64,000 bases of DNA from Candidatus Stahliibacteriota bacterium. Lineage in GTDB: Bacteria > Hydrothermota > Tepidihabitantia > SM23-42. Under the pieces are notes generated by a model. That model did no database searches and was not told the origin of the DNA. It worked only from the letters and a program-made list of their open reading frames with translations. Each line of letters opens with the position of its first letter. The first letter of the stretch is position 1. Shown one piece after another: positions 35,743-59,365 of the stretch. A program made the position numbers and the translations under genes. The DNA lies in contig JAUWCU010000002.1 of assembly GCA_030609135.1 (NCBI GenBank), positions 4,798-68,797 of the forward strand, in the 5' to 3' direction.

Positions 35743-35832
35743 TGTAGTCGCTCAATTCATTGAGCAGCCTGATAAATCCCGCAATCCTGTTTGTAGAATT
35801 ATAATACGAAGCGGGATAAATCAGGCAACTAC
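35743..35832. mobile_element. MITE-like repeat, copy 5 (full length), immediately abutting the leuC start codon
   Basis: TGTAGTCGCTCAATTCATTGAGC ... GCCTGATAAATCCCGC...GCGGGATAAATCAGGCAACTAC. The left terminal inverted repeat begins 1 nt after the leuC ATG (35740-35742). Confidence 0.6.
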
Positions 35833-35865
35833 GTTTTTGAAAATCAGATTCATCAAAAGCGTTTA

Positions 35866-36063
35866 ATCCGTCCCTTCGGTGATCTGGTTCATTTAGGTAT
35901 TTAGGCATTTTGGATTTTAGGTATTTGCTTTTTCTCCGGTACACCGTTACTCCCTTACGCCGTTTCCCCCAGTCTCCTTGTCCCCTTATCTTCAAAGATC
36001 CCCTGATCTCCTGACCCCACGTGTCTCCATGTCTCCGTTTCTCCATTTCTCTGTTTCTCCGTT
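35866..36063. repeat. Mosaic repeat modules plus five tandem octamers (GTKTCTCC / reverse-complement GGAGAMAC) ending at the ccl stop codon
   Basis: 35876-35985 share about 100 nt with 55195-55300 (gatctggttcatttagg...acaccgt.actccc.tacgccgtttccccc.gtctcc). 36020-36059 = gtgtctcc atgtctcc gtttctcc atttctct gtttctcc. Confidence 0.5.
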
Positions 36064-36828: not shown

Positions 36829-36944
36829 AATTGTTCCTCCAAATACCTAAAGTTGTGGGAGAGCCTTTCCAGGCTCGATTTTCGCGGGCAGCCCGCCCCC
36901 AAATATTTTTCCATAGCTTCTTGCCATTAATCGCCTTCTTTGCC

Positions 36945-37841: not shown

Positions 37842-37846
37842 TGTTA

Positions 37847-42700: not shown

Positions 42701-43905
42701 ACTCCGAATATTTGACAGGTATCTATTTTTTCCAGCTCACCAAATGTCCAGGAACCTGCTATGAAGAATCGTCCTTCATAGTCTTGTATTTGGGAACTGT
42801 CATGAGGTGTAAAATATTCTGGATACCGTGTTTGCATATAGGCAAGCCCTGGTCGCCAGTCGCCTTCATGAGGGACAAGATACAATGAAGTCTGGGCAGC
42901 CTGGCTCTGCGGTACGTACATTTGCATATAATTGTATGAGACCCTAAAAGTATCGGAAGCAGGGGTTTTTCTTAATTTAAATTGCAGTCGCGGTTTTTTC
43001 ACTTCAAATGGGCAGATAAAAGATACACCATAATCCAAAGTGGTATCATATAGAGTTACAGACGGCAAAATGCAGAAATTCTCACGATAGATGATTGTTT
43101 TATTGAAGTAGTCTTCGATGAAATACGGTGCATTGGCATCAGCCCAGAACGCATATTGCATTGTATCAAGAAGCGGTAAAGAAAAATCCAGACGCAATGA
43201 GCGTCTTGTCGGATTCTCAATATTGAGCCAGACATGATTATCCCAACGTAATCCGAGTGTATCCATTGTATAACTAACCAGTGCCTGATGATTCGGAAAA
43301 TTAATTTGAAAGCTGATCATCCCCTGTGTGGGAGTATTAACCGTGTCAATATAAACTAAGGAATCAACATCCTCATCTTGCAGATATTCCTGACTTATCA
43401 GCGTGTCCCGGAATACTATTTGTCCTGGCTCATTAGCTGAGAGCAACCCACTATGACCTTTTACTGTCAGACCGCGTATCACGCCTGTTTGCCTCCAGAA
43501 TATCACCTCCATGTGGATGTTGCGTAATATGATTAAGGTATCATTACTCTCGAATTCCACTTTCACCAGCTCAACTTCACCCATATTCACCGGTCCGATT
43601 TCAGGGTCATAAGTAATAACCTTGTTTCTAAAATATGAACCATATTCAAAATGAACATCATACTTACCTGCAGGAAGTGCACCGAACCGAGAAGCATGAA
43701 AATAACCATCTCCATACATCGGATGATGATAACTTACTGTATCAAGCACAATGCTCGTGTCGTTTTGATACACCGCCTTGATGTGGACTCCATTGGTTCT
43801 TACACCCTCTACCTTGGTAAAACCGTAGCAAAGTGTTTCTGCATAAGCAGTTTGCACAGCGCCCAGGCAAAACAATGCTACTATGAGTGACAAAATGTTC
43901 TTCAC
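39799..43905 (-). CDS. Large secreted protein (1368 aa) with two tandem C-terminal DUF1080/LamG-like jelly-roll domains
   Basis: Signal peptide MKNILSLIVALFCLGAVQTAYA. The last ~340 aa are two ~170-aa repeats (...W.NY.....K.YVFFRVQ.D..YYR.GI.GD...L.R...G.W..L..Y.F.P...WYNL.V..Q.....Y...D..........GGIGIG...). No recognisable catalytic motif in the N-terminal 1000 aa. Confidence 0.7.
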   Translation of the reverse strand: MKNILSLIVALFCLGAVQTAYAETLCYGFTKVEGVRTNGVHIKAVYQNDTSIVLDTVSYHHPMYGDGYFHASRFGALPAGKYDVHFEYGSYFRNKVITYDPEIGPVNMGEVELVKVEFESNDTLIILRNIHMEVIFWRQTGVIRGLTVKGHSGLLSANEPGQIVFRDTLISQEYLQDEDVDSLVYIDTVNTPTQGMISFQINFPNHQALVSYTMDTLGLRWDNHVWLNIENPTRRSLRLDFSLPLLDTMQYAFWADANAPYFIEDYFNKTIIYRENFCILPSVTLYDTTLDYGVSFICPFEVKKPRLQFKLRKTPASDTFRVSYNYMQMYVPQSQAAQTSLYLVPHEGDWRPGLAYMQTRYPEYFTPHDSSQIQDYEGRFFIAGSWTFGELEKIDTCQIFGVKWEEYYHNKAFFGLYVPQDRFKWLGIRDGDSTTTYKYWLRHAGNDYYTYDTITYIMNLFNDHQIGSYPYTQSMEAWKSWVYNDTIPFPFDSSLAKDQDGNPLKAFQACRLMNPDTNLLSFYPPGERSWAAYIDTQITAVLDSFPAAGIFYDRDDYHYYDYAHNDSVTMINTTPVYMLGFALEEINEKICREVHNRNKGILANGPTSVEVCKNIDGIMVERHPEVVSCLQYLGLSRPLILFVIDTLASETETKDKTALYGGLYPSLEANVDEPLSRLIDLKYQPLFNLYKGKTWVLNAHALRLPADIKGNIFKIPDNDLLIPMVNMDRSQVSMDPFRYNLGVKIMFPGLGTYDHCYVLSGDYFGPRWVYYDPTAMDMLNVPEHMVSALVRLSQEPRYEYSSMSSPVLCQGKAGKFKLRVQNLEFGSKQYALLITTPFGNCSFRTFWLRQCEVREIQYDFTIPDTHPLGEDTFWVINTSPTPDDSTLFTVWVYDPVSLELPEDLFIKFPTGDSFPLTLINNTTDTMSVTLTGAFTQGHGEIAFIGNNPVTLPGHGTKEVEVFLELKDTVGTLYITAISNSDTVGSITEQVNRAMRPLPGDIFYDDFNSGSMSSQWYKWDDPNAWSVEDSSAKGSGNYSSYLATVGAGDEGWTNYRFQVNTKMAGSTHPDIPYLKSYVFFRVQNDTQYYRYGIKGDEPRLVLYRRDSLHGWTRLGTYDFQPQKDSWYNLAVKVQGNWIRCFFNGKQVITANDTKYQYGGIGIGITEGNMTNYYDDIVVRPLEPPDTLFADNFDSGVMDTLWNKRQGTWFVPPEEPSFARGSGSTHFATVAEACDWTNYQYQVRTRIIGSASVSWLKSYVFFRVQDDLNYYRFGIHGDAGCIDLYKRVNGIWIFLASYPFKPEQNVWYNLKVEIQSQPHQIKGYLNDSLRISYTDNDNPFINGGIGIGVLEQEGMVTDYDDVLVQPLSGQ

Positions 43906-44003: not shown

Positions 44004-45401
44004 CTATTTCATCTTCACAACCCGCACAGGCTTGAAACTCTTGTCTTCAGGGATGAAAAAATAAACCCCGGCAGAAAGACCAAAACCGATTTTATCCCCA
44101 GAATAACTACCAACCTGTCTCCCCATGATATCATAGAGAATAAAGTGTTCCCTTTCACAACCGAGAGCGGATGCAAAAGAAACAAATGGATTAGGAACAA
44201 CTTGTAAATTTGACGTGTAAGGTCGATGCCAAGCACTATTATTATCCTCGATCCCTGTATTTCCATCCGCATCGGTTTTGACAAGATAAACCTGACGCTG
44301 ATTTCCGAATGAATACGTAAACCCGGCGATGATATACCCACCATCTGTGGTCTGCTGGACAGAGTAGCTGCCATCGTTGGAGTTCCCGCCGTAGCATCTT
44401 ATCCATTGATCATTACCAAGAGAATCGATCTTTGCTACGTAGGCACTACCAAGCCCGAGAGCATCGGTATATCCTGCAACGATATACCCTCCATCAGTAG
44501 TCTGCTGAATACAAAATCCCTGTTCATAACCCTGACCTGATATCACCCCATACCCTCTGGTCCACAAAGTATCCCCGAGAGAATCAGTCTTTATGAGATA
44601 GACATCTTCATTGTTACTCGATATATACCAGTAGTATCCCGCGATGATATATCCACCATCTGTGGTCTGCTGGACAGAGTAGCCTTCTTGTACATTCGCA
44701 ACTCCTCTTTGGTATCTCCCTGTCCAGAGTGTATCACCAAGAGAGTCGGTCTTCACCAGGTAGACATCGTTTCCTATCATCCCCGCTGCAATATAACCCC
44801 CATTCTGCGTCTGCTGAACTGAATAGCCATTGTCATCGAAATTTCTAGTCCATAGAGTATCTCCGAGAGAGTCGGTTTTGATAAGGATAAAGTTACCTTG
44901 ACGGTCACAATAATCCCACCAATAAGGACCGCCAACAATAATATACCCTCCATCAGTAGTCTGCCGAACACAATTCCCACATGAGGCACCTCCATATGTT
45001 TTAGTCCATAAAGTGTCTCCAAGAGAATCGATTTTAACAAGATAAATATGTTCATTATTTCCAAAAGAAGTAGTGTAACCGGTGATGATATAGCCTTCAT
45101 CAACGGTTTGCTGGACAGAGTAGCCCCAATCTCTCCCTGTCCCTCCATAGATCTTAGCCCAGAGCGTATCTCCGAGAGAATCGGTCTTCACCAGGTAGAT
45201 CTGGTCGCTATCTCCATAAGAACTAGTATATCCTACCACTATATAGCCACCATCTGTGGTTTGGTCTACAGAACGACCTTCCTCATAGCCCGCCCCTCCA
45301 TAGTTCCTCTCCCACATCAGTTGAGAAAAACCTGTGCCTGCAAAGACCATGACAAGCAGCACCCAGAGCACAAGCCGAAGTGGATTAAAATCTTTTTCCA
45401 T
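44004..45401 (-). CDS. SBBP beta-propeller-repeat surface protein with a T9SS-type C-terminal sorting domain
   Basis: Signal peptide, then about 9 repeats of ...GG.G.D.GYSVQQTTDGGYIIAGYT.S.G....YLVKTDSLGDTLW...; the C-terminus ...GVYFFIPEDKSFKPVRVVKMK resembles Por-secretion CTDs. Confidence 0.7.
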   Translation of the reverse strand: MEKDFNPLRLVLWVLLVMVFAGTGFSQLMWERNYGGAGYEEGRSVDQTTDGGYIVVGYTSSYGDSDQIYLVKTDSLGDTLWAKIYGGTGRDWGYSVQQTVDEGYIITGYTTSFGNNEHIYLVKIDSLGDTLWTKTYGGASCGNCVRQTTDGGYIIVGGPYWWDYCDRQGNFILIKTDSLGDTLWTRNFDDNGYSVQQTQNGGYIAAGMIGNDVYLVKTDSLGDTLWTGRYQRGVANVQEGYSVQQTTDGGYIIAGYYWYISSNNEDVYLIKTDSLGDTLWTRGYGVISGQGYEQGFCIQQTTDGGYIVAGYTDALGLGSAYVAKIDSLGNDQWIRCYGGNSNDGSYSVQQTTDGGYIIAGFTYSFGNQRQVYLVKTDADGNTGIEDNNSAWHRPYTSNLQVVPNPFVSFASALGCEREHFILYDIMGRQVGSYSGDKIGFGLSAGVYFFIPEDKSFKPVRVVKMK

Positions 45402-45794: not shown

Positions 45795-46307
45795 TTATTC
45801 ATTATGGTTTTTCTTCTTCAGATAATCAAGTAAGCCGCCCGCCTTCATGATTTTCATTTCAAGCGGTGTAATAGCGATGCCTTGATAAACCTTATTCTGT
45901 GATAAATTAGTGATTTTACCATTTTCAATGTTAACCTCAAGCCGGTCTTTCTGTTCAATCTCCCCGGTTCTATCAAATAGCACAATCGGTAAACCAGTAT
46001 TAACCGCATTTCTATGGAATATCCTGGCAAAAGACCTGGCGATCACAAGAGAAACACCAATACCATGGATACCTACAGTCGCATGCTCACGTGAAGAACC
46101 GCAGCCGAAATTCTTGCCGGCTACAATAATATCACCCGGTTCCACGTTTTCTATGAATTCTTCCCCGCCAGGCGCGCCTTCCATAGCATGGAGCGCCATT
46201 TCCTGCTTGTCAGTAATGGGCAGATACTTACCCGGATATATCTGGTCAGTATCAATATCATCTCCAAAGCACCATACCTTTCCTTTAATTATCACATTAC
46301 ACCTCAC
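45795..46307 (-). CDS. Aconitase-family small subunit, second copy (LeuD-type)
   Basis: DTDQIYPGKYL...GKNFGCGSSREHA. Confidence 0.85.
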   Translation of the reverse strand: MRCNVIIKGKVWCFGDDIDTDQIYPGKYLPITDKQEMALHAMEGAPGGEEFIENVEPGDIIVAGKNFGCGSSREHATVGIHGIGVSLVIARSFARIFHRNAVNTGLPIVLFDRTGEIEQKDRLEVNIENGKITNLSQNKVYQGIAITPLEMKIMKAGGLLDYLKKKNHNE

Positions 46308-47592
46308 GTGGATCAGTAATGACTCCTGTCAAAGCAGTCGCGGCAGCGGTTGCTGGCGATGCAAGAAAAACTTTAGCACCTTGACCGAGCTTGCCTATGA
46401 AATTACGATTTGAAGTAGAAACCATTACTTCACCAGGTGCAAGAATACCAGGGTGTCCAGTCGTACACAGTGCACAACCCGGGTTGGTCACCACGGCGCC
46501 AGCATTTATAAAAATGTCGTACAAGCCTTGTTTCAGTGATTTTTTTGCTACTTCCATGGTTGCTGGCACAATAATTAAACGCATACCAGGTTTAATTTTA
46601 TTCCCTTTTAATATTTGTGCAGCGATATTCAAATCCTCAAATCTACCATTAGTACAAGAACCTATGAAAACCTGATCAACCTCAGTCTTGGCAATATTTT
46701 TAACATCCTTTACATTATCCGGTGAATGGGGACAGGCGATCTGGGGTTGCAGATCATCGATATTGAATTCATGTATTTCTTCGTATACAGCATCTGAGTC
46801 AGGTTCAATTGTTTCAACCTTTTCTTTAGTCCTCGTTTTGATATAATCCAAAATCTCATGGTTAGGCTGTATAAAACCGATATCTCCAGACATCTCGGTT
46901 ACCATACTTGCCATTGTTATACGTTCAGCAAGATTCAAATGGTCGATTGTCTGACCAGAGAATTCGACTGCCCGGTTGAGCGCACCGTCAGTCTTCAATG
47001 TCTTGAGTAGAAAAAGTATTATATCTTTTGCCGTAACGAACTTCTTTAGTTTACCAGTAACTTCAATCTTGATCGTTGGTGGTATACGAAAATATAACTC
47101 ACCCTTGTACATTGCGCCGGCAATATCGGTTGTGCCCATACCAAACCCTGCAGCACCGACCCCACCAAGCAGATTCATATGACTATCAGTACCAACAATA
47201 ATATCCCATGGTTTTGCCAAACCGTTTTCAAAAAGAATATGCTGACCAATACCTGTATCGATGTCAAAGAGTTTTACACCTTGACGAGCAGCAAATTCCC
47301 TCAAGAATTTTTGATTTACCGCGACTTTCTCGTCACGAGCAGGGATATGAAGGTCAAAAGTTATCACTACTTTTCTATTATCAAATACCGACTGTTCACC
47401 AAACTTGTTCTGATATTCCTGGATAACATTTGGTCCGCCAAAATCGCGCATCGCTACAAGATTCAATTTCGCCCAGATATATTCACCTGGTTTAACATCT
47501 TTACCTGCCGCGCGTGCAAAAATCTTCTCAATGATTGTCATGGCTTTGCCAAGCTTACAAAATCCAAGTTCCAAGAACCAAGAGTTAAGCAC
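46297..47592 (-). CDS. Aconitase-family large subunit, second copy (LeuC-type)
   Basis: VGTDSHMNLLGG, GSCTNGRFEDL, NPGCALCTTGH Fe-S cluster motifs. Confidence 0.85.
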   Translation of the reverse strand: MLNSWFLELGFCKLGKAMTIIEKIFARAAGKDVKPGEYIWAKLNLVAMRDFGGPNVIQEYQNKFGEQSVFDNRKVVITFDLHIPARDEKVAVNQKFLREFAARQGVKLFDIDTGIGQHILFENGLAKPWDIIVGTDSHMNLLGGVGAAGFGMGTTDIAGAMYKGELYFRIPPTIKIEVTGKLKKFVTAKDIILFLLKTLKTDGALNRAVEFSGQTIDHLNLAERITMASMVTEMSGDIGFIQPNHEILDYIKTRTKEKVETIEPDSDAVYEEIHEFNIDDLQPQIACPHSPDNVKDVKNIAKTEVDQVFIGSCTNGRFEDLNIAAQILKGNKIKPGMRLIIVPATMEVAKKSLKQGLYDIFINAGAVVTNPGCALCTTGHPGILAPGEVMVSTSNRNFIGKLGQGAKVFLASPATAAATALTGVITDPREV

Positions 47593-47595
47593 ATA

Positions 47596-48021
47596 CTAAT
47601 CTTTGACTTTGTTATAGATTGATCCGAAAATATTTCTGAGTTCATATGATTCCTGGACCAATATTACTACTGTTTCTTGATTACCAATCTGCGTTCTTCG
47701 CATAATGCGTAGCCAATAATTCGATTCTCTTGTCTCTTTAAGAACAATGCTAATCTTATGCCTAAAGTCTGCTTTTGAACTGGTCGCCTGAGCTTCCTCA
47801 TAATTAGCGCCGACTGAAGTACCTGATTTTGCCAGTTGATACCTAATAACATCATTTTCTTTTTCGTAGGGAACTGTTTTCAGGAGATCAATAATGGCAA
47901 CTGCAAATTCAAATGTTCTCTCTTTTAAATCAATGATATATTCTGCTCCTGGTTCCTTGACCTCAAATCTTAATGGTGCTTTTTGAATGATCTCATATAC
48001 TTTTTCTTGTTGACACTTCAT
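47596..48021 (-). CDS. Four-helix-bundle protein of the 23S rRNA intervening-sequence protein family
   Basis: ERTFEFAVAIIDLLKTVP...IRYQLAKSGTSVGANYEEAQ...SKADFRHKISIVLKETRESNYWLRI is the TIGR02436-type signature. Start placed at MKCQQ (48021); the ORF-track extension overlaps the upstream gene by 17 nt. Confidence 0.7.
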   Translation of the reverse strand: MKCQQEKVYEIIQKAPLRFEVKEPGAEYIIDLKERTFEFAVAIIDLLKTVPYEKENDVIRYQLAKSGTSVGANYEEAQATSSKADFRHKISIVLKETRESNYWLRIMRRTQIGNQETVVILVQESYELRNIFGSIYNKVKD

Positions 48022-48073
48022 TATTCCTATCACTCTCTTGGTTCTTGGAACTTGGTTCTTGGAACTTGAGAAA

Positions 48074-49165
48074 TTACAATTTCTCTGCAATGGCTTCTGC
48101 CATTTCTAAGCTCGTCGCCTCACCGCCCATATCATACGTTTTGGTTTTTCCTTCCTCGATAACCTGGGCAACCGCTTTCTCGAACCGGTCCGCAGCAGCG
48201 TGTTCGCCAAGCCATTCAAGCATCATTTTAGCAGCAAGGATTGTTGCGATCGGGTTTACCTTATACATACCAGCATATTTTGGCGCTGAGCCGTGGGTCG
48301 GTTCAAAAACTGCATAGCTGTCACCAATATTACCGCTCGAGCCAAAACCGAGACCCCCGGTCATCTGCGCACATAAATCAGAAATAATATCACCATATAG
48401 GTTGGGTGCAACCAGAATGTCGTAGTTAAATGGTTTCTTAAGCAACCACTGACAAAGAGAATCAACATTCGCATTATCAGCTTCAATACCAGGGTAGTCT
48501 GCAGCAACCTGATCAAATTTTTCAAGGAATAAACCATCTGTTGCTCTCACGACATTTGCCTTATGGACACACGTAACCTTTTTCCTTTTGTGCTTTTGTG
48601 CAAAATCAAAAGCTGCTCGGACAATCCTCTCGCACCCTTTGGGCGTATTGACCTTCACAGAAATAGCTGCATCCCTGGCTACATTTTCCATTCCCTTGAT
48701 CGACAACATTTCTACAGGAACTTGATTATACTCAATGCCCGAGTACAGATCTTCAGTATTCTCCCGAAAAATGACAAAATCAATACCCTCTTTAAAGTTC
48801 AGTGGGTTACCTTTATACGCCTTACACGGACGTTTGCATATGTATAAATCAAACTTCTGACGCATTCGCACAATCGGACTTCGGTAAACCAAACCTTTGT
48901 TTCTTAAGCTTGGTACGAGTTCAGTATCGGCAATACTCTTTGGTTTTGAAGTTATTGCACCGAACATCGCACAATCAGTACTCCTCATTAGTTCAACAGT
49001 TCGCTTAGGCAGAGGCTCGCCTTCTTTGCACCAGAATTCCCAACCTACATCACCATGTATGTATTGAGCATCAAGACCAATTCTATCAAGGACGATTCTT
49101 GTTGCGTCGAGAACATCCTTTCCTATACCATCACCAGGTAACCAGGCAATCTTATATTTTGCCAT
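48074..49165 (-). CDS. Beta-decarboxylating dehydrogenase of the isocitrate/homoisocitrate/3-isopropylmalate dehydrogenase family (HICDH-like subgroup)
   Basis: FGAITSKP (compare GAATSP of Thermus homoisocitrate dehydrogenase), DLYICKRP, FVIFRENTEDLYSGIE, NLYGDIISD, HGSAPKYAGMYKVNP (Icd-like APKYAG rather than the LeuB APDIAG). Confidence 0.8.
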   Translation of the reverse strand: MAKYKIAWLPGDGIGKDVLDATRIVLDRIGLDAQYIHGDVGWEFWCKEGEPLPKRTVELMRSTDCAMFGAITSKPKSIADTELVPSLRNKGLVYRSPIVRMRQKFDLYICKRPCKAYKGNPLNFKEGIDFVIFRENTEDLYSGIEYNQVPVEMLSIKGMENVARDAAISVKVNTPKGCERIVRAAFDFAQKHKRKKVTCVHKANVVRATDGLFLEKFDQVAADYPGIEADNANVDSLCQWLLKKPFNYDILVAPNLYGDIISDLCAQMTGGLGFGSSGNIGDSYAVFEPTHGSAPKYAGMYKVNPIATILAAKMMLEWLGEHAAADRFEKAVAQVIEEGKTKTYDMGGEATSLEMAEAIAEKL

Positions 49166-49277: not shown

Positions 49278-50393
49278 TTATACTATCCCCTCATATATGC
49301 GGTATTTTTTGTAGAGCTTACCACCCATTTTTGTAACAGCATTGTTGGTCGGGTGGTTATCCTCAAGTACCCATGATAGCTCACCTGCATTGTAGCCGAG
49401 CTGCTGAGCGGCTCGAAAAGACTCAAGGAAAAGTAATGACTCTAAACCCATTTTTCTGTACTGCTTGCGTACACCCATGATTATCATACGCGCGTCTTTT
49501 ATTTTCTTTTTGTAATACAGGAATTTCAGCATCTCAATAGGCCCCAATCGTCCGTTCAGTTTTTTTAGAACCGTATTGTAATTCGGTACAGCAAGCGAGA
49601 CTGCTACTGGAACACCGTCTATTTCTATGATCGGCACCAACTCCGGGATAATCAATGATTTCATATTCTCGGCAAAGGCACTTATTTCCTCATCAGTCAT
49701 CGGTACAAAGCCCCAATTACGGCTCCACGCATCATTATAGATCTCTTGTATTTTCTTTACTTCATTTTCAAAGTCAGCAACATTAATCGGTCTGACCTTC
49801 ATATCATGTACTCGTCTCCGTACAATAGAACAAATTCTTTCCAGATATTCAAAGGGTGCATCTTTCATATCACAGTAATACGCAAAGAGATCTTTGGTTT
49901 TCTTAAGCCCGCACTTTTTTATCAAATCATCGTAATACTCATAATTGTAAGGCATCATTATAAAAGGCGTTGTATAAAAACCCTCAATCAGAACTCCACA
50001 TTCATTATTAGTCGATGGATTCAAAGGACCGATGTATTTGGTGATATTTTTGTCACTAAGATATTCCTTTACATGTTCAAAAAGGGCTTTTCCTGCATCT
50101 TCATCATCATCACACTCAAAGAACCCAAAATATGCTGTCTTTTCATCCCAGAATTCCATGAAGTTATAGTCAATAATCGCGCATATCCTCCCGGACAACT
50201 GTTTATCCCGGTAGACAAGAAACAATTCCTTTTCAGCATGGCTCCAGAACGAATTCTTTGTTTTATCAAAGAGATTACGTACCTCACGTTTAAGCGGAGG
50301 CACCCAATAGCGATTTTTTTTATACAATTTAAAAGGAAGGTTTATAAAATCCTTCAGTTCTTTTTCGGTTTTTACAGGAACTACAGTAATCAT
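49278..50393 (-). CDS. GNAT-fold N-acyltransferase-family protein (about 370 aa)
   Basis: N-terminal MITVVPVKTEKELKDFINLPFKLYKKNRYWVPPL... family commonly annotated as GNAT N-acetyltransferase; C-terminal acyl-CoA N-acyltransferase-like core; co-transcribed with the alpha-oxoamine synthase (stop/start overlap at 50393). Confidence 0.5.
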   Translation of the reverse strand: MITVVPVKTEKELKDFINLPFKLYKKNRYWVPPLKREVRNLFDKTKNSFWSHAEKELFLVYRDKQLSGRICAIIDYNFMEFWDEKTAYFGFFECDDDEDAGKALFEHVKEYLSDKNITKYIGPLNPSTNNECGVLIEGFYTTPFIMMPYNYEYYDDLIKKCGLKKTKDLFAYYCDMKDAPFEYLERICSIVRRRVHDMKVRPINVADFENEVKKIQEIYNDAWSRNWGFVPMTDEEISAFAENMKSLIIPELVPIIEIDGVPVAVSLAVPNYNTVLKKLNGRLGPIEMLKFLYYKKKIKDARMIIMGVRKQYRKMGLESLLFLESFRAAQQLGYNAGELSWVLEDNHPTNNAVTKMGGKLYKKYRIYEGIV

Positions 50394-51580
50394 TATTTCT
50401 TTAACCCAAATTCTTCAGCACAGTGTGCAAAAGCCTCTAAGATAATTTCAATGTCTTCATCCGTATGTGTAGACATATAGCTGGTCCGAATCAAAGCGCG
50501 GCCGGGCGGCGTCGCCGGAGAAATAACCGGGTTTGCAAAAATACCGCTCGCAATCAGTTTTTTCCAAAAGGCAAAGCATTGTTCATCTTCACCAATGATA
50601 ATCGGGATGACCGGCGTCTCACTATCACCAGTATCAAGCCCGATATCTCTAAAACCCTTTAACATACGTCGGGCTACCGCCCACAATCTTTTGCGGCGTT
50701 CAGGTTCGGTTCTGATAATATTCAAAGCCATCTGGGCACTCGCAACTGAAGCAGGAATCATGGACGCCGAAAATATTAATGCCCGGGCACGATGCTTAAT
50801 ATGGGTGATAACGTCTTTATCACCGACAACAAAACCGCCCAGTGATGCAAATGCTTTACTAAACGTCCCCATTAGTAAGTCAACTCTATCGAGCACACCA
50901 AAGTGCTCACATGTACCTTGACCTTTTTCGCCGTGTACACCGACTCCGTGTGCATCGTCAACGAGTAAGCGGCACTTATATTTTTCTTTCAAACGGACGA
51001 TTTCAGGGAGGTTAGCCAAATCACCTTCCATGCTGAATACGCCATCAACAATTATCAATTTACCGCGGTCTTCAGGTAACGTCTTTAATATCCGCTCTAA
51101 ATCTTCCATATCATTGTGCCGATACTTCTTAACATCGGCAAATGATAAACGGCAGCCATCAATGATAGAAGCATGGTCCTGACGATCAATGATCAAGAGA
51201 TCGTCTTTGCCGCCGAGTGCTGAAATAATACCCAAATTCGTTTGAAAACCAGTGGAAAAAATAATCGCCCCGTCTTTTTCATAGAACTCAGCCAGGTCTT
51301 TTTCAAGTTTGACGTGAATATCGAGTGTCCCATTGAGAAACCTTGAACCAGAACATGTCGAGCCATACTTTTCCACGGCTTTGATCGCTGCTTCCTTCAT
51401 GCGCGGATCAGCAGCCAGACCAAGGTATCCATTAGATCCGATCATTATAAATTCTTTACCATCTATTTTGACGCGGTGACCCTGGGCAGATTCTATCGGT
51501 GTGAAATATGGATAAATCCCCAATTCCTGTGTTTTTTTCACTCGTTCAACGGTGAAAGCACACTTTTTAAATAAATCCAT
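50393..51580 (-). CDS. Alpha-oxoamine synthase (PLP-dependent; KBL/BioF/serine-palmitoyltransferase family)
   Basis: GSNGYLGL, DGVFSMEGD, the PLP lysine region TFSKAFASLGG, and an ELGIYPYF N-terminal motif typical of Spt/CFAT-like members. Confidence 0.8.
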   Translation of the reverse strand: MDLFKKCAFTVERVKKTQELGIYPYFTPIESAQGHRVKIDGKEFIMIGSNGYLGLAADPRMKEAAIKAVEKYGSTCSGSRFLNGTLDIHVKLEKDLAEFYEKDGAIIFSTGFQTNLGIISALGGKDDLLIIDRQDHASIIDGCRLSFADVKKYRHNDMEDLERILKTLPEDRGKLIIVDGVFSMEGDLANLPEIVRLKEKYKCRLLVDDAHGVGVHGEKGQGTCEHFGVLDRVDLLMGTFSKAFASLGGFVVGDKDVITHIKHRARALIFSASMIPASVASAQMALNIIRTEPERRKRLWAVARRMLKGFRDIGLDTGDSETPVIPIIIGEDEQCFAFWKKLIASGIFANPVISPATPPGRALIRTSYMSTHTDEDIEIILEAFAHCAEEFGLKK

Positions 51581-51609
51581 TGGATAGTATAGTTACTTTT
51601 TGTCTGAAG

Positions 51610-52878
51610 TCAACCTATGTTCCTCAGGAACCATTTCAGGTCAAAAATCTTTGCGATCTCTTTTTCATTAAGGTATTGACACACTTTTTTGTCCTTAAGA
51701 ACTGTCTTTTTCAGATCTTCTTTTGCCGCAATAGTCTTGAAAGACAAACGCTGTACAGTGTTATAAGCCTCTCCCCTGCTCATACCATGTTGTACGAGTT
51801 TGTTCATTAAATTCTGGGAGGCGTAAACACCGTAGCTTGCCTCAATATTCTCCATCATGCGTTTTGGATACACATTCAGGTTCTCAAGCACCCAGCGTGT
51901 TTTTAGAGTAAGGTAATGTGCCAAGTGAAATGCATCCGGGAAAATAACCCGTTCGACTGAAGAATTAGTAATATCCCGTTCATGCCAGAGCGTGATATTC
52001 TCGTAAGCCGGGATTAGATAGCTACGCAGAACCCGCACCAAACCGCTTATGCGTTCACAGGTAATCGGATTTTTCTTATGCGGCATGGCAGAAGAACCCT
52101 TTTGCCCACGAGTAAACGGTTCAAGCACCTCACCTATTTCAGTACGGGAAAGGTTCCGGATTTCAGTAGCAATCCTTTCCAAGGCGCATGCATACAGTGC
52201 AATAATAGCAAGCAGCAAAGCGAAACGATCCCTTGGTAGAACTTGAGTTGACACGGGTTCTGGTTTCAAACCTAACTTCCTCATAACTCTTTTCTCAAGC
52301 GCTGGTGATAGCATTGTATAGGTACCAACTGCACCAGACAGCTTACCAAAGGACATTTCTTTCCTAGCAAGGATAAGACGCTGATACGCCCGCTTGACTT
52401 CTTCATACCAGGAAGCGACTTTGTAACCGAATGTAATAGGTTGAGCAAAAACACCATGTGTTCTGCCCATCTGGGGCGTTTTTTTGTATTTCAAGGAAAG
52501 CCTTTTCAACACGGTCAGGAGTTTCTTCACATCACCCAGCAAAACATCAATAGCTTCAAGGAGCATCAACACAAAGGCGGTATCAACAAGATCGTACGAG
52601 GTCAGTCCAAAGTGCAACCATTTACCAGCTCGCTTGTCGAGTTTTTCCCGGGCAGCTTCTAAAAAAGCAATAACGTCATGGTTGGTGACTTTTTCTATGG
52701 TTCGAACTCGTTCTGGTTTCACCTTTATCTTGGCTAGTTTGCTACTGAGTCCACGCGGAATCACCCCGGATTTTTCCTCAATCCCAGCAACAATTCGTTC
52801 GACAAAAAGCCATTTCTTTAATTTGTATTCATCATTGAATATTCTTGCCATCTCTTTTGTCTGATAACGTGTTATCAT
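51610..52878 (-). CDS. purB: Adenylosuccinate lyase
   Basis: The MITRYQTKEMARIF N-terminus and the fumarate-lyase signature GSSAMPHKKNP. Confidence 0.9.
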   Translation of the reverse strand: MITRYQTKEMARIFNDEYKLKKWLFVERIVAGIEEKSGVIPRGLSSKLAKIKVKPERVRTIEKVTNHDVIAFLEAAREKLDKRAGKWLHFGLTSYDLVDTAFVLMLLEAIDVLLGDVKKLLTVLKRLSLKYKKTPQMGRTHGVFAQPITFGYKVASWYEEVKRAYQRLILARKEMSFGKLSGAVGTYTMLSPALEKRVMRKLGLKPEPVSTQVLPRDRFALLLAIIALYACALERIATEIRNLSRTEIGEVLEPFTRGQKGSSAMPHKKNPITCERISGLVRVLRSYLIPAYENITLWHERDITNSSVERVIFPDAFHLAHYLTLKTRWVLENLNVYPKRMMENIEASYGVYASQNLMNKLVQHGMSRGEAYNTVQRLSFKTIAAKEDLKKTVLKDKKVCQYLNEKEIAKIFDLKWFLRNIG

Positions 52879-55312: not shown

Positions 55313-56776
55313 TTACGCCAGCGGTAGTATTACCTTAAAAGTGGTCCCTCTACGCATTTCACTATGCACCTCGATACTTCCGTCATGTGCCTCAATTATG
55401 TTCTTGGCTATTGCTAAACCAAGACCTATGCCACCTTTTTTTGTTGTAAAGAAAGGCTCGAAGATCTTTTCCATGGCTCGTTTGGAAATGCCTTTGCCGG
55501 TATCCTGTATTTCAACCATACCTTTCTTTTTGTCTATATATGTCCTTATCTTAACAGTCTTACCTTCAGGGGTAGCTTCGCAGGCATTACTAATAATATT
55601 CACCAGACCGGCTTTCAGTTTATTGAGATCACCAAGGATGAAGAAATCATTGTCTTCTCTTTTTATCACTATCTTGTTGGTTTTGGCACGCGGCAACGCA
55701 TCAATGAATGCCTCGTTTATGACTTCACTGATACGCAAACGATTTTTCTTGAACGGCACAAACTGGGCAAAGTTCAAGAAATCAGTAACAATTTCATTCA
55801 ACCTTATTGATTCGTCTAATGCCATATTTGTAAAATGGAGGATATCAGCATCCTTCTGTGAATCCCGGATTACTTCAAGGGATCCTCTTATTGACGATAA
55901 GGGATTCCGGATCTCATGTGCCAAAGAACCACCTAATTCCGCAAGGAGTTGTGTCTGTTTGGAGACGCGTGATTTTTCTTCCAGTTTTCTAATAGCTGTA
56001 ATATCCTGAAGTATACCAAGACCGATTTTTGAACTGTAAATTCTGGCGCACGACAATACAAAATACCGTTTACCAATCTTCAGTTCAATCGACCTTTTTG
56101 CGTGACGTGCCTTAAGAAATTTTGCAATATAGAGGTGAACTCTTGACTGTATTGGACCTTCTGGGATATTGGTATGTATTATCGTGCCGCGCCGGTCGAT
56201 GGTTATGATCCCTGAAGGAAGATTCTTTAATATTTCTTCGGTTGTGAGCCTTAATCTCGCGGCTTCTTCAGTACGGTTTTGGTAGCGCTTTGACCATGCG
56301 CCACTCAGTATCCCGGTAAAGAGAAAGAGTAGTCCAAAGACATAGAATCGATACATGACATATTGCATTGTCGCACTTGTCTCGCGCATTTCATAGAATA
56401 GCAAGCCGAGAAAGAAAATCACCGAAATAACACTAACCGTATAGGCACCAGTTTTATAAAGGTATAAGGATACGACAATAATCAACAATATGTAGAGCAA
56501 TGGGAAGATAGATTCAACCCCGCCTGAGTAGTGAATCATAGAACCAATGAGCGGGATATCGACCAAAAAAATGATGTAAAGGGAAGTTTTTTCTGGTAGC
56601 CAGGTCTGCAAGAGTAGAAAAACCGAAGCTAATATGAAAGATGCAAGGATAATAAACCAAAAAGGTGTTGGGATACTGTGAATTATTGGATATGAGGATA
56701 ACAGAATAAAAGTTATCACCAGTGGGTGAAGAATAATCAGACCAGCTTTTCTACTGAAGAACGTCGAATATACCAC
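55313..56776 (-). CDS. Membrane sensor histidine kinase (PilS-like context)
   Basis: 6-TM N-terminal domain, HisKA H-box LAHEIRNPLSSI, HATPase_c N/G boxes (GGIGLGLAIAK); adjacent to pilC/pilT/pilB. Confidence 0.8.
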   Translation of the reverse strand: MVYSTFFSRKAGLIILHPLVITFILLSSYPIIHSIPTPFWFIILASFILASVFLLLQTWLPEKTSLYIIFLVDIPLIGSMIHYSGGVESIFPLLYILLIIVVSLYLYKTGAYTVSVISVIFFLGLLFYEMRETSATMQYVMYRFYVFGLLFLFTGILSGAWSKRYQNRTEEAARLRLTTEEILKNLPSGIITIDRRGTIIHTNIPEGPIQSRVHLYIAKFLKARHAKRSIELKIGKRYFVLSCARIYSSKIGLGILQDITAIRKLEEKSRVSKQTQLLAELGGSLAHEIRNPLSSIRGSLEVIRDSQKDADILHFTNMALDESIRLNEIVTDFLNFAQFVPFKKNRLRISEVINEAFIDALPRAKTNKIVIKREDNDFFILGDLNKLKAGLVNIISNACEATPEGKTVKIRTYIDKKKGMVEIQDTGKGISKRAMEKIFEPFFTTKKGGIGLGLAIAKNIIEAHDGSIEVHSEMRRGTTFKVILPLA

Positions 56777-56876
56777 TATCTATTCCCAACCTGCACCCAA
56801 ACATATGCAATAGCGTTTGCCTACACAGCTATCCGCACTCAGTAACTCTGTCACAACCTATTGTTTGCTTATAAAG

Positions 56877-58082
56877 TTATTCCGTAATTGTGCCGGCTAA
56901 TTGGAATATGGGCAGGTACATGGAAATAACCAAGAATCCAACAATCCCACCCAAAAAGACCATGATAAGAGGTTCGAGAGCAGCGGTCAGGTTCTCGACT
57001 GCTTGATCTACCTCTTCATCGTAGAAATCAGCGACTTTAGCAAGCATCTCGTCCAAACCTCCCGATGCTTCGCCGATCGCAATCATTTGCGTAACCATCG
57101 GTGGAAAGACCGCAGTTTTGGACAACGGATCAGCGATGTTTTCACCGCCTTTAATCGAGATTCGAGCTTTTAAAATGGCATCCTCGACAACCCAGTTCCC
57201 GGCACTGCGTGCGGTTATTTCCAGAGCATCAATTATGGGTACACCACTGGAAAGCAAAGTTGATAGGGTTCTTGCGAAACGAGCAATTGACTGTTTTCTT
57301 ATTAGATCGCCGAAGACCGGGAACTTAAGGAATATTGGATCCATTGCCTTTGCACCAGAGCTAGTTTTATGCCACCGTCTGAGGATCGTAAATAGGGCAA
57401 TGACGATAATCACTAATGGTATTATCGCAACCTTGAGAAAATCAGACATTTTCATGACCAAGCGTGTCATAGCTGGTAATTCAGCTCCTACGCCAGCATA
57501 CATTTTTGCAAAAATAGGTATCACAAAAAGGAGCATTACCGAAATAGCGCCAACTGCAACGAGCGAAATAATGGCCGGATAAATCATCGCACCCTTTATC
57601 TTCCGTCTCAGCGCCGCGCTCTTTTCCAAATATACAGCCAGACGCATGAGGATGACATCCAAAGCACCGCCGGTTTCACCTGACTCGATCATATTCACAT
57701 ACAGGTTATCAAAGGCCTTTGGTTGTCGACGTAACGCATCAGCAAGTGACAAACCACCTTCAACATCGCCTCTCACTTCAGTCAAGATTTTACGCAGCGC
57801 CAGACTTTCCGTCTGTTTACCGAGAATCTCCAGACACGTTAACAACGGAAGACCAGCGTTGAGCATAGTCGAAAATTGTCTAGTAAAAACAGCCAGTGCA
57901 CGTCCTGTAACCCGGCCCGCAAATAGCGTCAACTTTTTCTTCTCTTCTTTAACCTTTATTGAAGTGGGAATAATTTTCTTCTGGCGCAGCGCAGCTACAA
58001 CGTCGGTTTGAGAACCTGCAGCAATTTCACCAGTAGCTGAGGCCCCTGATGCTGTTCTACCTTTCCAGACAAAAGTTGGCAT
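56877..58082 (-). CDS. pilC: Type IV pilus assembly platform protein PilC (GspF family)
   Basis: Two T2SSF repeats and 3 TM segments; Shine-Dalgarno AAGGAGGTGA. Confidence 0.85.
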   Translation of the reverse strand: MPTFVWKGRTASGASATGEIAAGSQTDVVAALRQKKIIPTSIKVKEEKKKLTLFAGRVTGRALAVFTRQFSTMLNAGLPLLTCLEILGKQTESLALRKILTEVRGDVEGGLSLADALRRQPKAFDNLYVNMIESGETGGALDVILMRLAVYLEKSAALRRKIKGAMIYPAIISLVAVGAISVMLLFVIPIFAKMYAGVGAELPAMTRLVMKMSDFLKVAIIPLVIIVIALFTILRRWHKTSSGAKAMDPIFLKFPVFGDLIRKQSIARFARTLSTLLSSGVPIIDALEITARSAGNWVVEDAILKARISIKGGENIADPLSKTAVFPPMVTQMIAIGEASGGLDEMLAKVADFYDEEVDQAVENLTAALEPLIMVFLGGIVGFLVISMYLPIFQLAGTITE

Positions 58083-58260
58083 TTCACCTCCTTATGTTAT
58101 AAAGGTTACGTTTTGCGGTTTGGGTTTTTAAAAAACGATTCGTTTATCGATAATCGATAGTCGTTATATCGAAACCCTTCCACGAAACCGTTTCGCGTTT
58201 CGCTCAACGCAACCAATAAATTGTTATCAGACCGAATTCTATTAAACCCCATAAGCTATC

Positions 58261-59331: not shown

Positions 59332-59365
59332 AGAGCCTCCTTTAAATTAATCATAGAGCATGTAT

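What the first reader, a model, noticed from the sequence alone, without database searches (positions are those of the whole stretch)
49278..51580. An alpha-oxoamine synthase (Spt/KBL/BioF family) translationally coupled to a ~370-aa GNAT N-acyltransferase: candidate aminolipid or sphingolipid-type biosynthesis pair
The alpha-oxoamine synthase has a GxYPYF N-terminal motif, as seen in serine-palmitoyltransferase and cysteate-acyltransferase-like enzymes, rather than a typical BioF context (no other bio genes nearby). Its stop overlaps the start of a GNAT-fold N-acyltransferase.

Bacterial ceramide synthases and N-acyl amino-acid lipid synthases are GNAT-fold enzymes that pair with such a condensing enzyme. 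So this two-gene unit may make an N-acylated long-chain amino lipid (ceramide-, sulfonolipid- or glycine/serine-lipid-like).
Basis: inference. Interest (0 to 1): 0.55.

Follow-up and report, generated by a model that had tools for sequence, protein, structure and literature searches.

The report
Bacterial ceramide-synthesis gene pair (Spt + bCerS)
Two overlapping genes in an uncultured WOR-3 bacterium look like the first two enzymes of the known bacterial pathway for making ceramide (a sphingolipid); this is a sound but fairly ordinary addition to a pathway already inferred in some 40 bacterial phyla.

Summary
Two minus-strand genes, 50393-51580 (395 aa) and 49278-50393 (371 aa), share a TAATG stop/start overlap.

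The first gene is an alpha-oxoamine synthase that is clearly serine-palmitoyltransferase-like. Its best NCBIfam model is Spt of the CFB group (549 bits, against 392 for BioF and 380 for KBL). It is 54% identical, without gaps, to Sphingobacterium multivorum SPT, and 19 of 22 active-site residues are identical.

The second gene is a tandem-GNAT protein of the large, uncurated YghO family. It is 33-35% identical over its full length to the proteins at the ceramide-synthase (bCerS) position of proteobacterial sphingolipid loci in E. coli, Sphingomonas and Roseomonas.

In 80 genomes from more than 20 phyla, 53 have an AOS homologue near the GNAT, 39 of them immediately upstream. Of those 53, 37 also carry an epimerase-type CerR-like reductase.

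So the pair most likely makes 3-ketosphinganine and N-acylates it.

No CerR, ACP, bio or tdh gene lies in the 64-kb window, and no CerR-like gene lies near the pair in seven other WOR-3 loci.

Verdict: a new member of a known kind, of modest interest.

The parts
50393..51580 (-). spt-like gene: PLP-dependent alpha-oxoamine synthase (395 aa), predicted serine palmitoyltransferase of the Bacteroidota (CFB) type
   Evidence: Pfam PF00155 at 3.5e-58. NCBIfam NF047600 SerpalmtaseCFB 548.8 bits (cutoff 640), against BetaP Spt 410, BioF 392 and KBL 380. PDB 3a2b/8guh S. multivorum SPT 432 bits, against Sphingomonas SPT 295, KBL 259 and CFAT 251. 54% identity without gaps and 19 of 22 active-site or acyl-wall residues identical.
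50855..50866 (-). TFSK motif holding the predicted PLP Schiff-base lysine (Lys242, equivalent to Lys244 of S. multivorum SPT)
   Evidence: Translation; alignment; residue roles taken from PMC10196870.
51503..51520 (-). GIYPYF N-terminal motif (Tyr23, Tyr25 and Phe26, equivalent to Tyr25, Tyr27 and Phe28 of S. multivorum SPT, which form part of the acyl-chain binding wall)
   Evidence: PMC10196870.
50391..50395 (-). TAATG stop/start overlap between spt-like and bcerS-like genes (suggests translational coupling)
   Evidence: Sequence read. Tight spacing recurs in relatives: the tblastn gap is 0-300 bp in 39 of 80 loci.
49278..50393 (-). bcerS-like gene: 371-aa tandem-GNAT N-acyltransferase of the YghO family, predicted bacterial ceramide synthase
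   Evidence: AF2 pLDDT 92.6. Foldseek top hits are tandem GNATs (2wpw, 7q3a, 5kf1, MshD). 33-35% full-length identity (E 1e-70 to 1e-77) to E. coli YghO and to the Sphingomonas and Roseomonas proteins found in sphingolipid loci. Synteny with AOS and CerR-like genes.
49809..50393 (-). N-terminal GNAT-like half (about aa 1-195), with no recognisable CoA-binding motif; probably contributes to the acceptor or lipid site
   Evidence: Secondary structure of the model; the Pfam match lies only in the C-terminal half. The functional role is inference.
49281..49808 (-). C-terminal GNAT half (about aa 196-371), with the Pfam Acetyltransf_1 match and the family signature motifs YNDAWSRNWG (49710-49739) and ELSWVLEDN (49356-49382)
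   Evidence: N220, W223, N226, W227, G228, E338, W341, L343 and N346 are invariant from WOR-3 to E. coli and Sphingomonas.
51586..51613 (-). sigma-70-like promoter match (TTGACT-16-TATACT) just upstream of the spt-like start, overlapping the end of purB
   Evidence: This is a consensus match only; such matches were not strongly enriched (29 found against 18 +/- 4 expected), so the evidence is weak.

Best explanation
The two genes encode the first two enzymes of the bacterial ceramide pathway defined in Caulobacter.

The upstream enzyme is a soluble PLP-dependent serine palmitoyltransferase. It condenses L-serine (possibly also alanine or glycine) with a long-chain acyl-CoA or acyl-ACP, with decarboxylation, to give 3-ketosphinganine.

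The downstream enzyme is a tandem-GNAT acyl-CoA N-acyltransferase of the YghO/bCerS family. It N-acylates that long-chain base to give an oxidised (3-keto) dihydroceramide. A reductase encoded elsewhere would then reduce this to dihydroceramide for use as an envelope lipid.

The one-base stop/start overlap suggests that the two proteins are made together. The pair sits in a long co-directional run of housekeeping genes (pilS-like kinase, truA, htrA, purB, spt, bcerS, Iso_dh). This arrangement is conserved in WOR-3 and fits a constitutive membrane lipid.

What is shown: the gene structure, the homology, the fold and the synteny. What is inferred: the substrates, the order of steps, the product and its location.
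For: AOS identity:
- The Spt (CFB) model scores 548.8 bits, at least 139 bits above every non-Spt model.
- The best solved relative is S. multivorum SPT (432 bits). KBL, CFAT and BioF score 206-259 bits.
- Lys242, His136, Asp208, His211, Thr239, Ser183, Asn50, Gly78 and Ser79 match the catalytic and serine-binding residues described in PMC10196870.

GNAT identity:
- The fold is tandem GNAT.
- It is a full-length homologue (33-35% identity) of E. coli YghO and of the Sphingomonas parapaucimobilis and Roseomonas proteins.
- In E. coli, yghO lies beside lptF-lptG paralogues, an Spt that passes the NCBIfam equivalog cutoff (599.9 bits against 500), an ACP, an epimerase-family reductase and a fatty acyl-AMP ligase.
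- In Roseomonas the order is lptF2-lptG2-GNAT. [quoted passage not shown]

Synteny:
- 53 of 80 genome loci from more than 20 phyla have an AOS 43-86% identical to this one close to the GNAT, and in 39 it lies directly upstream.
- 37 of those 53 also have a CerR-like epimerase-family gene. These include cultured Myxococcus and Pyxidicoccus, with the order Spt-GNAT-CerR.

The pathway order (acylation before reduction) and the cytoplasmic location of Spt and bCerS come from PMC11087976.
Against: - The AOS is below NCBI's equivalog cutoff for CFB Spt (548.8 against 640), so its amino-acid specificity is not proven.
- No CerR-like reductase, dedicated ACP or acyl-ACP synthetase lies in the 64-kb window. 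None lies within the 1-10 kb of flank held around the pair in seven other WOR-3-type loci.
- I could not obtain the Caulobacter bCerS (CCNA_01212) sequence. The link to the biochemically characterised enzyme is therefore indirect, resting on homology plus conserved position in proteobacterial loci.
- No curated Pfam or NCBIfam model exists for this family.
- No lipid data exist for WOR-3, which is uncultured.
- 22 of 80 loci with at least 1.3 kb of upstream flank carry the GNAT without a nearby AOS, so some family members could have other acceptors.
Confidence: 0.8

Rival explanations
1. The AOS is a 2-amino-3-ketobutyrate CoA ligase (KBL, threonine catabolism) or BioF (biotin synthesis), and the GNAT is an unrelated generic acetyltransferase that merely overlaps it.
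For: KBL and BioF models do score well, because the superfamily is close-knit: TIGR00858 392 bits and NF005394 380 bits. The only Pfam hit of the GNAT is the generic PF00583.
Against: Both scores are below their curated cutoffs (426 and 460) and 157-169 bits below the Spt model. No tdh or bioA/B/D genes lie in the window. The AOS-GNAT pairing is conserved across more than 20 phyla and often includes a CerR-type reductase, which neither KBL nor BioF function would explain.
Confidence: 0.04
2. The pair makes a different N-acylated long-chain amino lipid. One option is a sulfonolipid (cysteate condensation, capnine-type). Another is a 1-deoxy, glycine- or lysine-derived sphingoid lipid, made because the AOS prefers an amino acid other than serine.
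For: The AOS is below the Spt equivalog cutoff. Spt-like enzymes accept Ala and Gly (PMC10196870). Environmental 1-deoxy-, sulfono- and lysine-ceramides of unknown origin are reported (PMC11334938). Three of the 22 compared residues differ (Ser53 to Gly, Ala79 to Ser, Met271 to Ile). Ala79 contacts the substrate side chain through a water molecule.
Against: Solved CFAT scores only 251 bits against 432 for SPT. The residues that hold the serine hydroxyl and carboxylate network (Asn52, Gly80, Ser81, His138, Ser243 in S. multivorum numbering) are conserved.
Confidence: 0.1
3. The GNAT is an N-acyl amino acid synthase (OlsB/GlsB-like) that makes glycine, serine or ornithine lipids independently of the AOS.
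For: Such enzymes are also acyl-CoA/ACP N-acyltransferases. In addition, 22 of 80 loci have the GNAT without a nearby AOS.
Against: The only Pfam hit of the GNAT was PF00583, and the OlsB family model was not among the hits. The fold is a 370-aa tandem GNAT, unlike OlsB-type single-domain enzymes (the latter point is from my own knowledge). The nearest characterised context is sphingolipid loci. Spt and bCerS are also unlinked in known producers such as Bacteroidota (PMC11334938).
Confidence: 0.04

Closest known systems
Caulobacter crescentus ceramide pathway: Spt (CCNA_01220), bCerS (CCNA_01212), CerR (CCNA_01222) (Stankeviciute et al. 2022; Olea-Ozuna et al. 2021; as summarised in PMC11087976, PMC9393093 and PMC11324152)
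   Same: Both have a soluble AOS-type Spt plus a soluble or peripheral GNAT-type N-acyltransferase. The window GNAT is homologous (33-35% identity over full length) to alphaproteobacterial and E. coli proteins that occupy the bCerS position next to lptF2/lptG2. A CerR-type epimerase-family reductase accompanies the pair in 37 of 53 syntenic loci.
   Different: Here the two genes overlap and stand alone. There is no dedicated ACP, acyl-ACP synthetase, CerR, LptF2/G2, ceramide kinase or headgroup genes in 64 kb. The Spt is of the Bacteroidota (CFB) type rather than the alphaproteobacterial type (334 bits to the AlphaP model against 549 to the CFB model). A direct alignment to CCNA_01212 was not possible.
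Sphingobacterium multivorum / Bacteroidota serine palmitoyltransferase (PDB 3A2B, 8GUH)
   Same: 54% identity over 371 residues without gaps. The PLP-binding motif GTFSK, His/Asp/His around PLP, the serine-binding network and the Tyr-x-Tyr-Phe acyl wall are all conserved.
   Different: In sphingolipid-producing Bacteroidota, spt is not clustered with bcerS or cerR (PMC11334938), whereas here it overlaps bcerS. The score is below the NCBIfam CFB equivalog cutoff. Three residues differ: Ser53 to Gly, Ala79 to Ser and Met271 to Ile.
E. coli YghO locus (lptF/lptG paralogues, Spt, ACP, epimerase, fatty acyl-AMP ligase, yghO), shown as a 'sphingolipid operon' of strain UTI89 in bioRxiv 10.64898/2026.04.12.717747
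   Same: YghO is 35% identical to the window GNAT over its full length (E 2e-72). It shares the signature motifs NxxWxxNWG and ExxWxLEDN.
   Different: The E. coli Spt is of the beta/gamma-proteobacterial type (39% identical to the window AOS). It is transcribed divergently from yghO, and the locus carries the ACP, ligase, reductase and transporter genes missing here.
Tandem-GNAT enzymes with solved structures (MshD mycothiol synthase, clavulanate CBG 2WPW, MAB_4324, GlmA glucosamine N-acetyltransferase, N-myristoyltransferase)
   Same: They share the overall two-GNAT-domain architecture (Foldseek E 5e-14 to 1e-7, TM 0.4-0.64).
   Different: Sequence identity is only 10-16%. They use different acceptors and, except NMT, use acetyl-CoA. 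There is no PDB sequence hit at E<=1.
KBL / BioF / CFAT / ALAS alpha-oxoamine synthases
   Same: Same fold-type I PLP superfamily and the same Claisen-type decarboxylative condensation chemistry.
   Different: They score 140-340 bits lower than Spt models and structures, and partner genes (tdh, bioADB) are absent from the window.

Membership tests
Serine palmitoyltransferase (bacterial Spt, alpha-oxoamine synthase family) | Fold-type I PLP enzyme with a GTFSK Schiff-base lysine motif and His/Asp/His around PLP | tested here: met
   PF00155 at 3.5e-58. TFSK at 50855-50866. His136, Asp208, His211, Thr239 and Lys242 align with His138, Asp210, His213, Thr241 and Lys244 of S. multivorum SPT.
Serine palmitoyltransferase (bacterial Spt, alpha-oxoamine synthase family) | Closer to characterised Spt than to KBL, BioF, ALAS, CFAT or CqsA | tested here: met
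   NCBIfam Spt-CFB 548.8 bits, against BioF 392, KBL 380 and ALAS 256. PDB SPT 432 bits, against KBL 259, CFAT 251 and BioF 209.
Serine palmitoyltransferase (bacterial Spt, alpha-oxoamine synthase family) | Reaches the curated equivalog score of an NCBIfam Spt model | tested here: not met
   548.8 bits against a cutoff of 640 for NF047600, and 409.8 against 500 for NF047599. The models were built for CFB and proteobacterial lineages, and WOR-3 lies outside them.
Serine palmitoyltransferase (bacterial Spt, alpha-oxoamine synthase family) | Genomic association with bCerS and/or CerR (the criterion used for 'Spt-like clade B' in PMC11334938) | tested here: met
   It overlaps a YghO/bCerS-family gene. 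Its homologues at 51-60% identity sit in AOS-GNAT-CerR clusters.
Serine palmitoyltransferase (bacterial Spt, alpha-oxoamine synthase family) | Catalyses L-serine plus long-chain acyl-CoA/ACP to 3-ketosphinganine | not testable with these tools
   Requires an enzyme assay or lipidomics.
Bacterial ceramide synthase bCerS (YghO-family tandem GNAT) | GNAT-fold acyl-CoA N-acyltransferase of about 360-390 aa without transmembrane segments | tested here: met
   371 aa. The AF2 model is a tandem GNAT and contains no long helices. bCerS is described as a soluble or peripheral protein with no predicted TM in PMC11087976.
Bacterial ceramide synthase bCerS (YghO-family tandem GNAT) | Sequence homology to the characterised enzyme (Caulobacter CCNA_01212) | tested here: inconclusive
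   The CCNA_01212 sequence could not be obtained. As a surrogate, there is 33-35% full-length identity to the Roseomonas, Sphingomonas and E. coli proteins at the equivalent position (next to lptF2/lptG2, in Spt/ACP/CerR loci).
Bacterial ceramide synthase bCerS (YghO-family tandem GNAT) | Clustering with spt and cerR | tested here: met
   Clustering with spt is met in the window and in 53 of 80 loci. cerR is absent from the window, but a CerR-like gene is present in 37 of those 53 loci.
Bacterial ceramide synthase bCerS (YghO-family tandem GNAT) | N-acylates 3-ketosphinganine or sphinganine with acyl-CoA | not testable with these tools
   Requires biochemistry.
OlsB/GlsB N-acyl amino-acid lipid synthases | Match to the OlsB-type acyltransferase family model | tested here: not met
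   The only Pfam hit at E<=0.01 is PF00583, and there is no NCBIfam hit.
BioF (biotin) / KBL (threonine degradation) | Reaches the curated equivalog score, with bioA/B/D or tdh nearby | tested here: not met
   392 bits against 426 for BioF and 380 against 460 for KBL. No such neighbours were found in 64 kb.

The most novel reading that the evidence does not exclude
WOR-3 bacteria make sphingolipids by a trimmed, CerR-independent route. On this reading the overlapping spt-bcerS pair is the whole dedicated pathway. The product either stays as a 3-keto (oxidised) ceramide or is reduced by a non-orthologous enzyme.

The pair's conserved operonic link to a LeuB/homoisocitrate-dehydrogenase-type Iso_dh gene might be functional rather than accidental. 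That link is seen in every WOR-3 locus examined, and in one it overlaps the GNAT by 8 bp. An Elusimicrobiota lineage has leuA-leuCD-leuB directly upstream of the pair. A functional link could reflect supply of iso-branched 2-oxoacid primers for branched long-chain bases, as Bacteroides sphingolipids depend on branched-chain amino-acid metabolism.
Probability: 0.15. Interest if true: 0.5.

Novelty: new member of a known kind. Interest (0 to 1): 0.28.

Why it matters
It assigns a specific function to two genes that public records label only as 'aminotransferase class I/II' and 'N-acetyltransferase' or 'hypothetical protein'. It also suggests that the uncultured phylum WOR-3 makes ceramide-type envelope lipids. 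That is useful for interpreting environmental sphingolipid signatures.

It also shows that the very large YghO family has no Pfam or NCBIfam model, although it appears to be the bacterial ceramide synthase family. More than 5,700 relatives were scored here, including E. coli YghO. A curated model would re-annotate thousands of genes.

It does not change the picture of how bacteria make ceramide.

Tried and rejected
1. The original bCerS paper (Nat Chem Biol 2022; DOI and PMC8891067) is not held, so neither the CCNA_01212 sequence nor its reported features could be used directly.
2. Fold search against AFDB50, which might have returned the Caulobacter protein, is not available on the machine. 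Only the PDB was searched.
3. A PDB sequence search with the GNAT found nothing at E<=1.
4. NCBIfam gave no family for the window GNAT. It also gave none for E. coli YghO or for the Sphingomonas, Roseomonas and Myxococcus homologues. The empty result therefore reflects a missing model and is not evidence against membership.
5. tblastn with two CerR-like queries found nothing in the window at E<1e-10, and Pfam scans of all window ORFs of at least 150 aa found no epimerase/SDR, ACP or acyl-CoA ligase. I judged a further 5.8-billion-protein search unlikely to be informative, since only the top 120 hits are shown and most are unnamed.
6. I considered whether the Iso_dh could be the missing reductase and rejected it. 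It scores as an isocitrate/homoisocitrate/isopropylmalate dehydrogenase and lies with aconitase-family genes, and in Elusimicrobiota it is plainly leuB within leuABCD.
7. The supplements held for PMC11334938 do not mention WOR-3, so whether that phylum was among its 38 phyla is unknown.
8. A literature search for yghO found nothing functional.
Full report
**Observation.**
An alpha-oxoamine synthase (AOS) is at 50393..51580 (395 aa). A GNAT-like protein is at 49278..50393 (371 aa). The junction reads ...AAATAATGATT..., so the TAA stop and the ATG start share one base. The GxYPYF motif (GIYPYF, 51503-51520) and the PLP-lysine motif (TFSK, 50855-50866) are both present.

**Source organism and setting.**
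The window has about 41% G+C. The closest relatives of the GNAT are labelled candidate division WOR-3, at 60-96% identity. The pair lies in a long co-directional run of housekeeping genes:
- type IV pilus genes
- a PilS-like kinase
- truA
- htrA
- purB
- AOS
- GNAT
- an Iso_dh-family dehydrogenase
- aconitase-family subunits
- citryl-CoA synthetase/lyase-like genes

Among the ORFs of at least 150 aa in the 64 kb, all scanned against Pfam, there are no bio genes, no tdh, no acyl carrier protein, no acyl-CoA/ACP ligase and no epimerase/SDR-type reductase.

**The AOS is a serine palmitoyltransferase-type enzyme.**
- Among NCBIfam models the best is NF047600, serine palmitoyltransferase of the CFB group, at 548.8 bits. 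Next come the betaproteobacterial Spt model (409.8), the BioF/Kbl-related subfamily (407), BioF (392), KBL (380), the alphaproteobacterial Spt model (334) and ALAS (256). The score is below the curated CFB cutoff of 640, as might be expected for a phylum outside the model's seed.
- Among solved structures, Sphingobacterium multivorum SPT (3A2B, 8GUH) scores 432 bits. Sphingomonas SPT scores about 290-295, KBL 239-259, cysteate fatty-acyltransferase 251 and BioF about 205-209.
- The alignment to 3A2B covers 371 residues without a gap, at 54% identity.
- I mapped 22 residues that PMC10196870 describes as contacting PLP or L-serine, or as forming the acyl-chain wall. Of these, 19 are identical. 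They include the Schiff-base lysine, His138, Asp210 and His213, and also Thr241, Ser185, Asn52, Gly80, Ser81 and the Tyr25/Tyr27/Phe28 wall (S. multivorum numbering). The three differences are Ser53 to Gly, Ala79 to Ser and Met271 to Ile.
- Spt is therefore strongly favoured over KBL, BioF or CFAT. Preference among amino acids cannot be settled by sequence.

**The GNAT is a tandem-GNAT protein of the YghO family.**
- Pfam gives only a weak PF00583 hit in the C-terminal half (24.8 bits). NCBIfam and PDB sequence searches give nothing.
- An AlphaFold2 model built on 31 homologues is confident (mean pLDDT 92.6, pTM 0.89). Foldseek against the PDB returns tandem-GNAT enzymes: clavulanate-pathway 2WPW, MAB_4324, glucosamine N-acetyltransferase GlmA, VipF and MshD. 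N-myristoyltransferase and the MprF soluble domain appear further down. E-values run from 5e-14 to 1e-7, with 10-16% identity.
- The family is very large. More than 5,700 of the 8,000 candidates scored had E<=1e-5.

**Link to the known bacterial ceramide synthase.**
A tblastn search of PLSDB found full-length matches at 33-35% identity to three proteins. These are E. coli YghO, a Sphingomonas parapaucimobilis 'N-acetyltransferase' and Roseomonas proteins mis-named 'dATP pyrophosphohydrolase'. Pairwise BLASTP gives E values of 1e-70 to 1e-77. Their contexts are proteobacterial sphingolipid loci:
- E. coli: lptF and lptG paralogues, an AOS, an acyl carrier protein, an NAD-dependent epimerase-family protein and a fatty acyl-AMP ligase, with yghO alongside. 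That AOS passes the NCBIfam Spt equivalog cutoff (599.9 against 500).
- Sphingomonas: an AOS, lptF, lptG, a desaturase and the GNAT.
- Roseomonas: two LptF/G-family permeases directly followed by the GNAT. A diacylglycerol-kinase-family gene, a CDP-alcohol phosphatidyltransferase, nucleotidyltransferases, a fatty acyl-AMP ligase and an epimerase-family gene lie nearby.

In Caulobacter the sphingolipid locus spans ccna_01212 to ccna_01226. LptG2 is CCNA_01213 and LptF2 is CCNA_01214 (bioRxiv 10.64898/2026.04.12.717747). bcerS is CCNA_01212, spt 01220, acp 01221, cerR 01222 and the ACP synthetase 01223 (PMC9393093). The same preprint shows an E. coli UTI89 'sphingolipid operon'. The YghO-family gene thus occupies the bCerS position.

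I could not retrieve the CCNA_01212 sequence, so this link rests on homology plus conserved position and not on a direct alignment. No Pfam or NCBIfam model covers E. coli YghO or the Sphingomonas, Roseomonas or Myxococcus homologues either.

An alignment of 17 sequences from WOR-3 to E. coli keeps 32 invariant positions. These include the motifs N220-x-x-W-x-x-N-W-G228 and E338-x-x-W-x-L-x-x-N346 in the C-terminal GNAT half.

**Synteny across phyla.**
A scan of one genome per species found 594 confirmed relatives, and the best 80 loci were kept. They come from:
- WOR-3, Elusimicrobiota, Nitrospirota and Zixibacteria
- Latescibacterota, Desulfuromonadales, Bryobacterales and Gemmatimonadota
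- Calditrichota, Planctomycetota, Verrucomicrobiota and Spirochaetes
- Ignavibacteria, Bacteroidota and Cloacimonadota
- cultured Myxococcus and Pyxidicoccus

tblastn against these loci gave the following:
- 53 of 80 have an AOS 43-86% identical to the window's within the flank.
- In 39 it lies directly upstream on the same strand, with a gap of 0-300 bp.
- In 5, all Bryobacterales or Acidobacteriota, it lies directly downstream.
- 37 of the 53 also carry an epimerase-family gene homologous to the reductases of the E. coli and Roseomonas loci. This is the CerR type.

Independent look-ups showed epimerase-AOS-GNAT triads in Elusimicrobia. An unnamed lineage also has the triad, next to a PAP2 gene and a second YghO paralogue. 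In Myxococcus the order is AOS, GNAT, CerR-like, all contiguous.

In 22 loci with adequate flank the GNAT stands without an AOS. These include Ignavibacteria, Bacteroidota, Cloacimonadota and Spirochaetes. This matches published remarks that the genes are unlinked in Bacteroidota and Cloacimonadota (PMC11334938).

**Mechanism proposed.**
This follows the Caulobacter model: Spt and bCerS are cytoplasmic, acylation precedes reduction, and CerR is periplasmic (PMC11087976).
1. The AOS condenses serine with a long-chain acyl thioester to give 3-ketosphinganine.
2. The tandem GNAT transfers a second acyl chain from acyl-CoA to the amine, giving an oxidised dihydroceramide.
3. A reductase encoded elsewhere completes dihydroceramide.

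The stop/start overlap suggests coupled translation. The gene structure, homology, fold and synteny are shown here. The substrates, the order of steps and the product are inferred.

**What is unusual.**
- No CerR-like gene lies in the 64-kb window. None lies within the 1-10 kb of flank held in seven other WOR-3-type loci (L001, L007, L008, L015, L090, L091, L092).
- In the window and five of those loci (L001, L007, L090, L091, L092) an Iso_dh-family gene follows the GNAT directly. In L091 it overlaps the GNAT by 8 bp although the other neighbours differ.
- An Elusimicrobiota lineage has leuA-leuC-leuD-leuB directly upstream of AOS-GNAT.
- The Iso_dh scores as a homoisocitrate/isopropylmalate/isocitrate dehydrogenase. 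It is not a credible ketosphinganine reductase. The link may be inherited synteny, or it may reflect supply of branched 2-oxoacid primers. I leave it as an aside.

**Comparison with what is known, and novelty.**
The Spt/bCerS/CerR pathway is established in Caulobacter. Spt-like genes, often next to bCerS and CerR, have already been inferred in 38-40 bacterial phyla (PMC11334938). Whether WOR-3 was among them could not be checked.

This pair is therefore a new member of a known kind. It is a CFB-type Spt fused in operon to a YghO/bCerS-family acyltransferase, without the accessory genes of proteobacterial loci.

Interest is modest. The practical value is the re-annotation of a very large, uncurated protein family and a lipid prediction for an uncultured phylum.

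Noticed in passing
window 48074-49165 (-); also L001 7246-8337, L090 11227-12318, L091 11130-12221, L092 4394-5497, L028 4197-5258: An Iso_dh-family dehydrogenase directly follows the GNAT in the window and five other WOR-3 loci. Its best NCBIfam hits, AksF2 and LEU3_arch, are below cutoff. In L091 it overlaps the GNAT stop by 8 bp although the other neighbours differ. In Elusimicrobiota L028 and L036, leuA-leuC-leuD-leuB lies directly upstream of AOS-GNAT. This may be inherited synteny or a link to branched-chain primer supply.
   Followed up: partly
window 47596-48090 (-): A small ORF of the '23S rRNA-intervening sequence protein' family (PF05635, 62.6 bits) is wedged between the Iso_dh and aconitase-family genes and overlaps the Iso_dh 3' end by 17 nt. 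It is absent from the same position in related WOR-3 genomes (L001, L090).
   Followed up: partly
window 44004-45401 (-) and 39799-43905 (-): The first is a 465-aa protein made of about eight repeats ending '...YLVKTDSLGDTLW', with a C-terminus resembling a T9SS sorting signal; Pfam gives only a weak DUF5122 beta-propeller hit. Next to it is a 1368-aa protein whose only Pfam hit is a 3-keto-disaccharide hydrolase domain. Both are probably secreted or surface proteins.
   Followed up: no
window 55313-62796 (-): A type IV pilus cluster with two PilB-like ATPases in tandem (59366-61087 and 61087-62796, with a 1-base overlap). It also has PilT (58261-59331), PilC (56877-58082) and a PilS-like histidine kinase (55313-56776). 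The order is conserved in WOR-3 genome CP070686.1 (L090).
   Followed up: no
window 33986-39079 (-) and 45795-47592 (-): There are two separate sets of two-subunit aconitase-family genes. With them are citryl-CoA synthetase-like (ATP-grasp_2/Ligase_CoA and CoA_binding) and short citrate-synthase-like (citryl-CoA lyase-type) genes. This suggests a reductive or split TCA module.
   Followed up: no
L004 8339-9538; L020 5711-6808; L040 10211-11326; L064 10266-11378: Some sphingolipid-type clusters (a delta-proteobacterial lineage and Myxococcales) carry a second, divergent YghO-family paralogue, 38-42% identical to the window GNAT, a few genes from the first. In L004 a PAP2-family gene and a large PKS-like gene also lie nearby.
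   Followed up: no
L089 6983-8134 (Roseomonas marmotae plasmid) and other Roseomonas records: The YghO/bCerS-family gene is annotated 'dATP pyrophosphohydrolase' in several RefSeq records. This looks like a propagated misannotation. E. coli and other records call it 'protein YghO', 'N-acetyltransferase' or 'hypothetical protein'.
   Followed up: partly
L055 6306-7934 (Myxococcus): The AOS reading frame continues about 120 codons past the end of AOS homology (about 7565) before the stop, just upstream of the GNAT gene. This could be a C-terminal extension or an unresolved small gene. The high G+C content makes ORF calls unreliable here.
   Followed up: no
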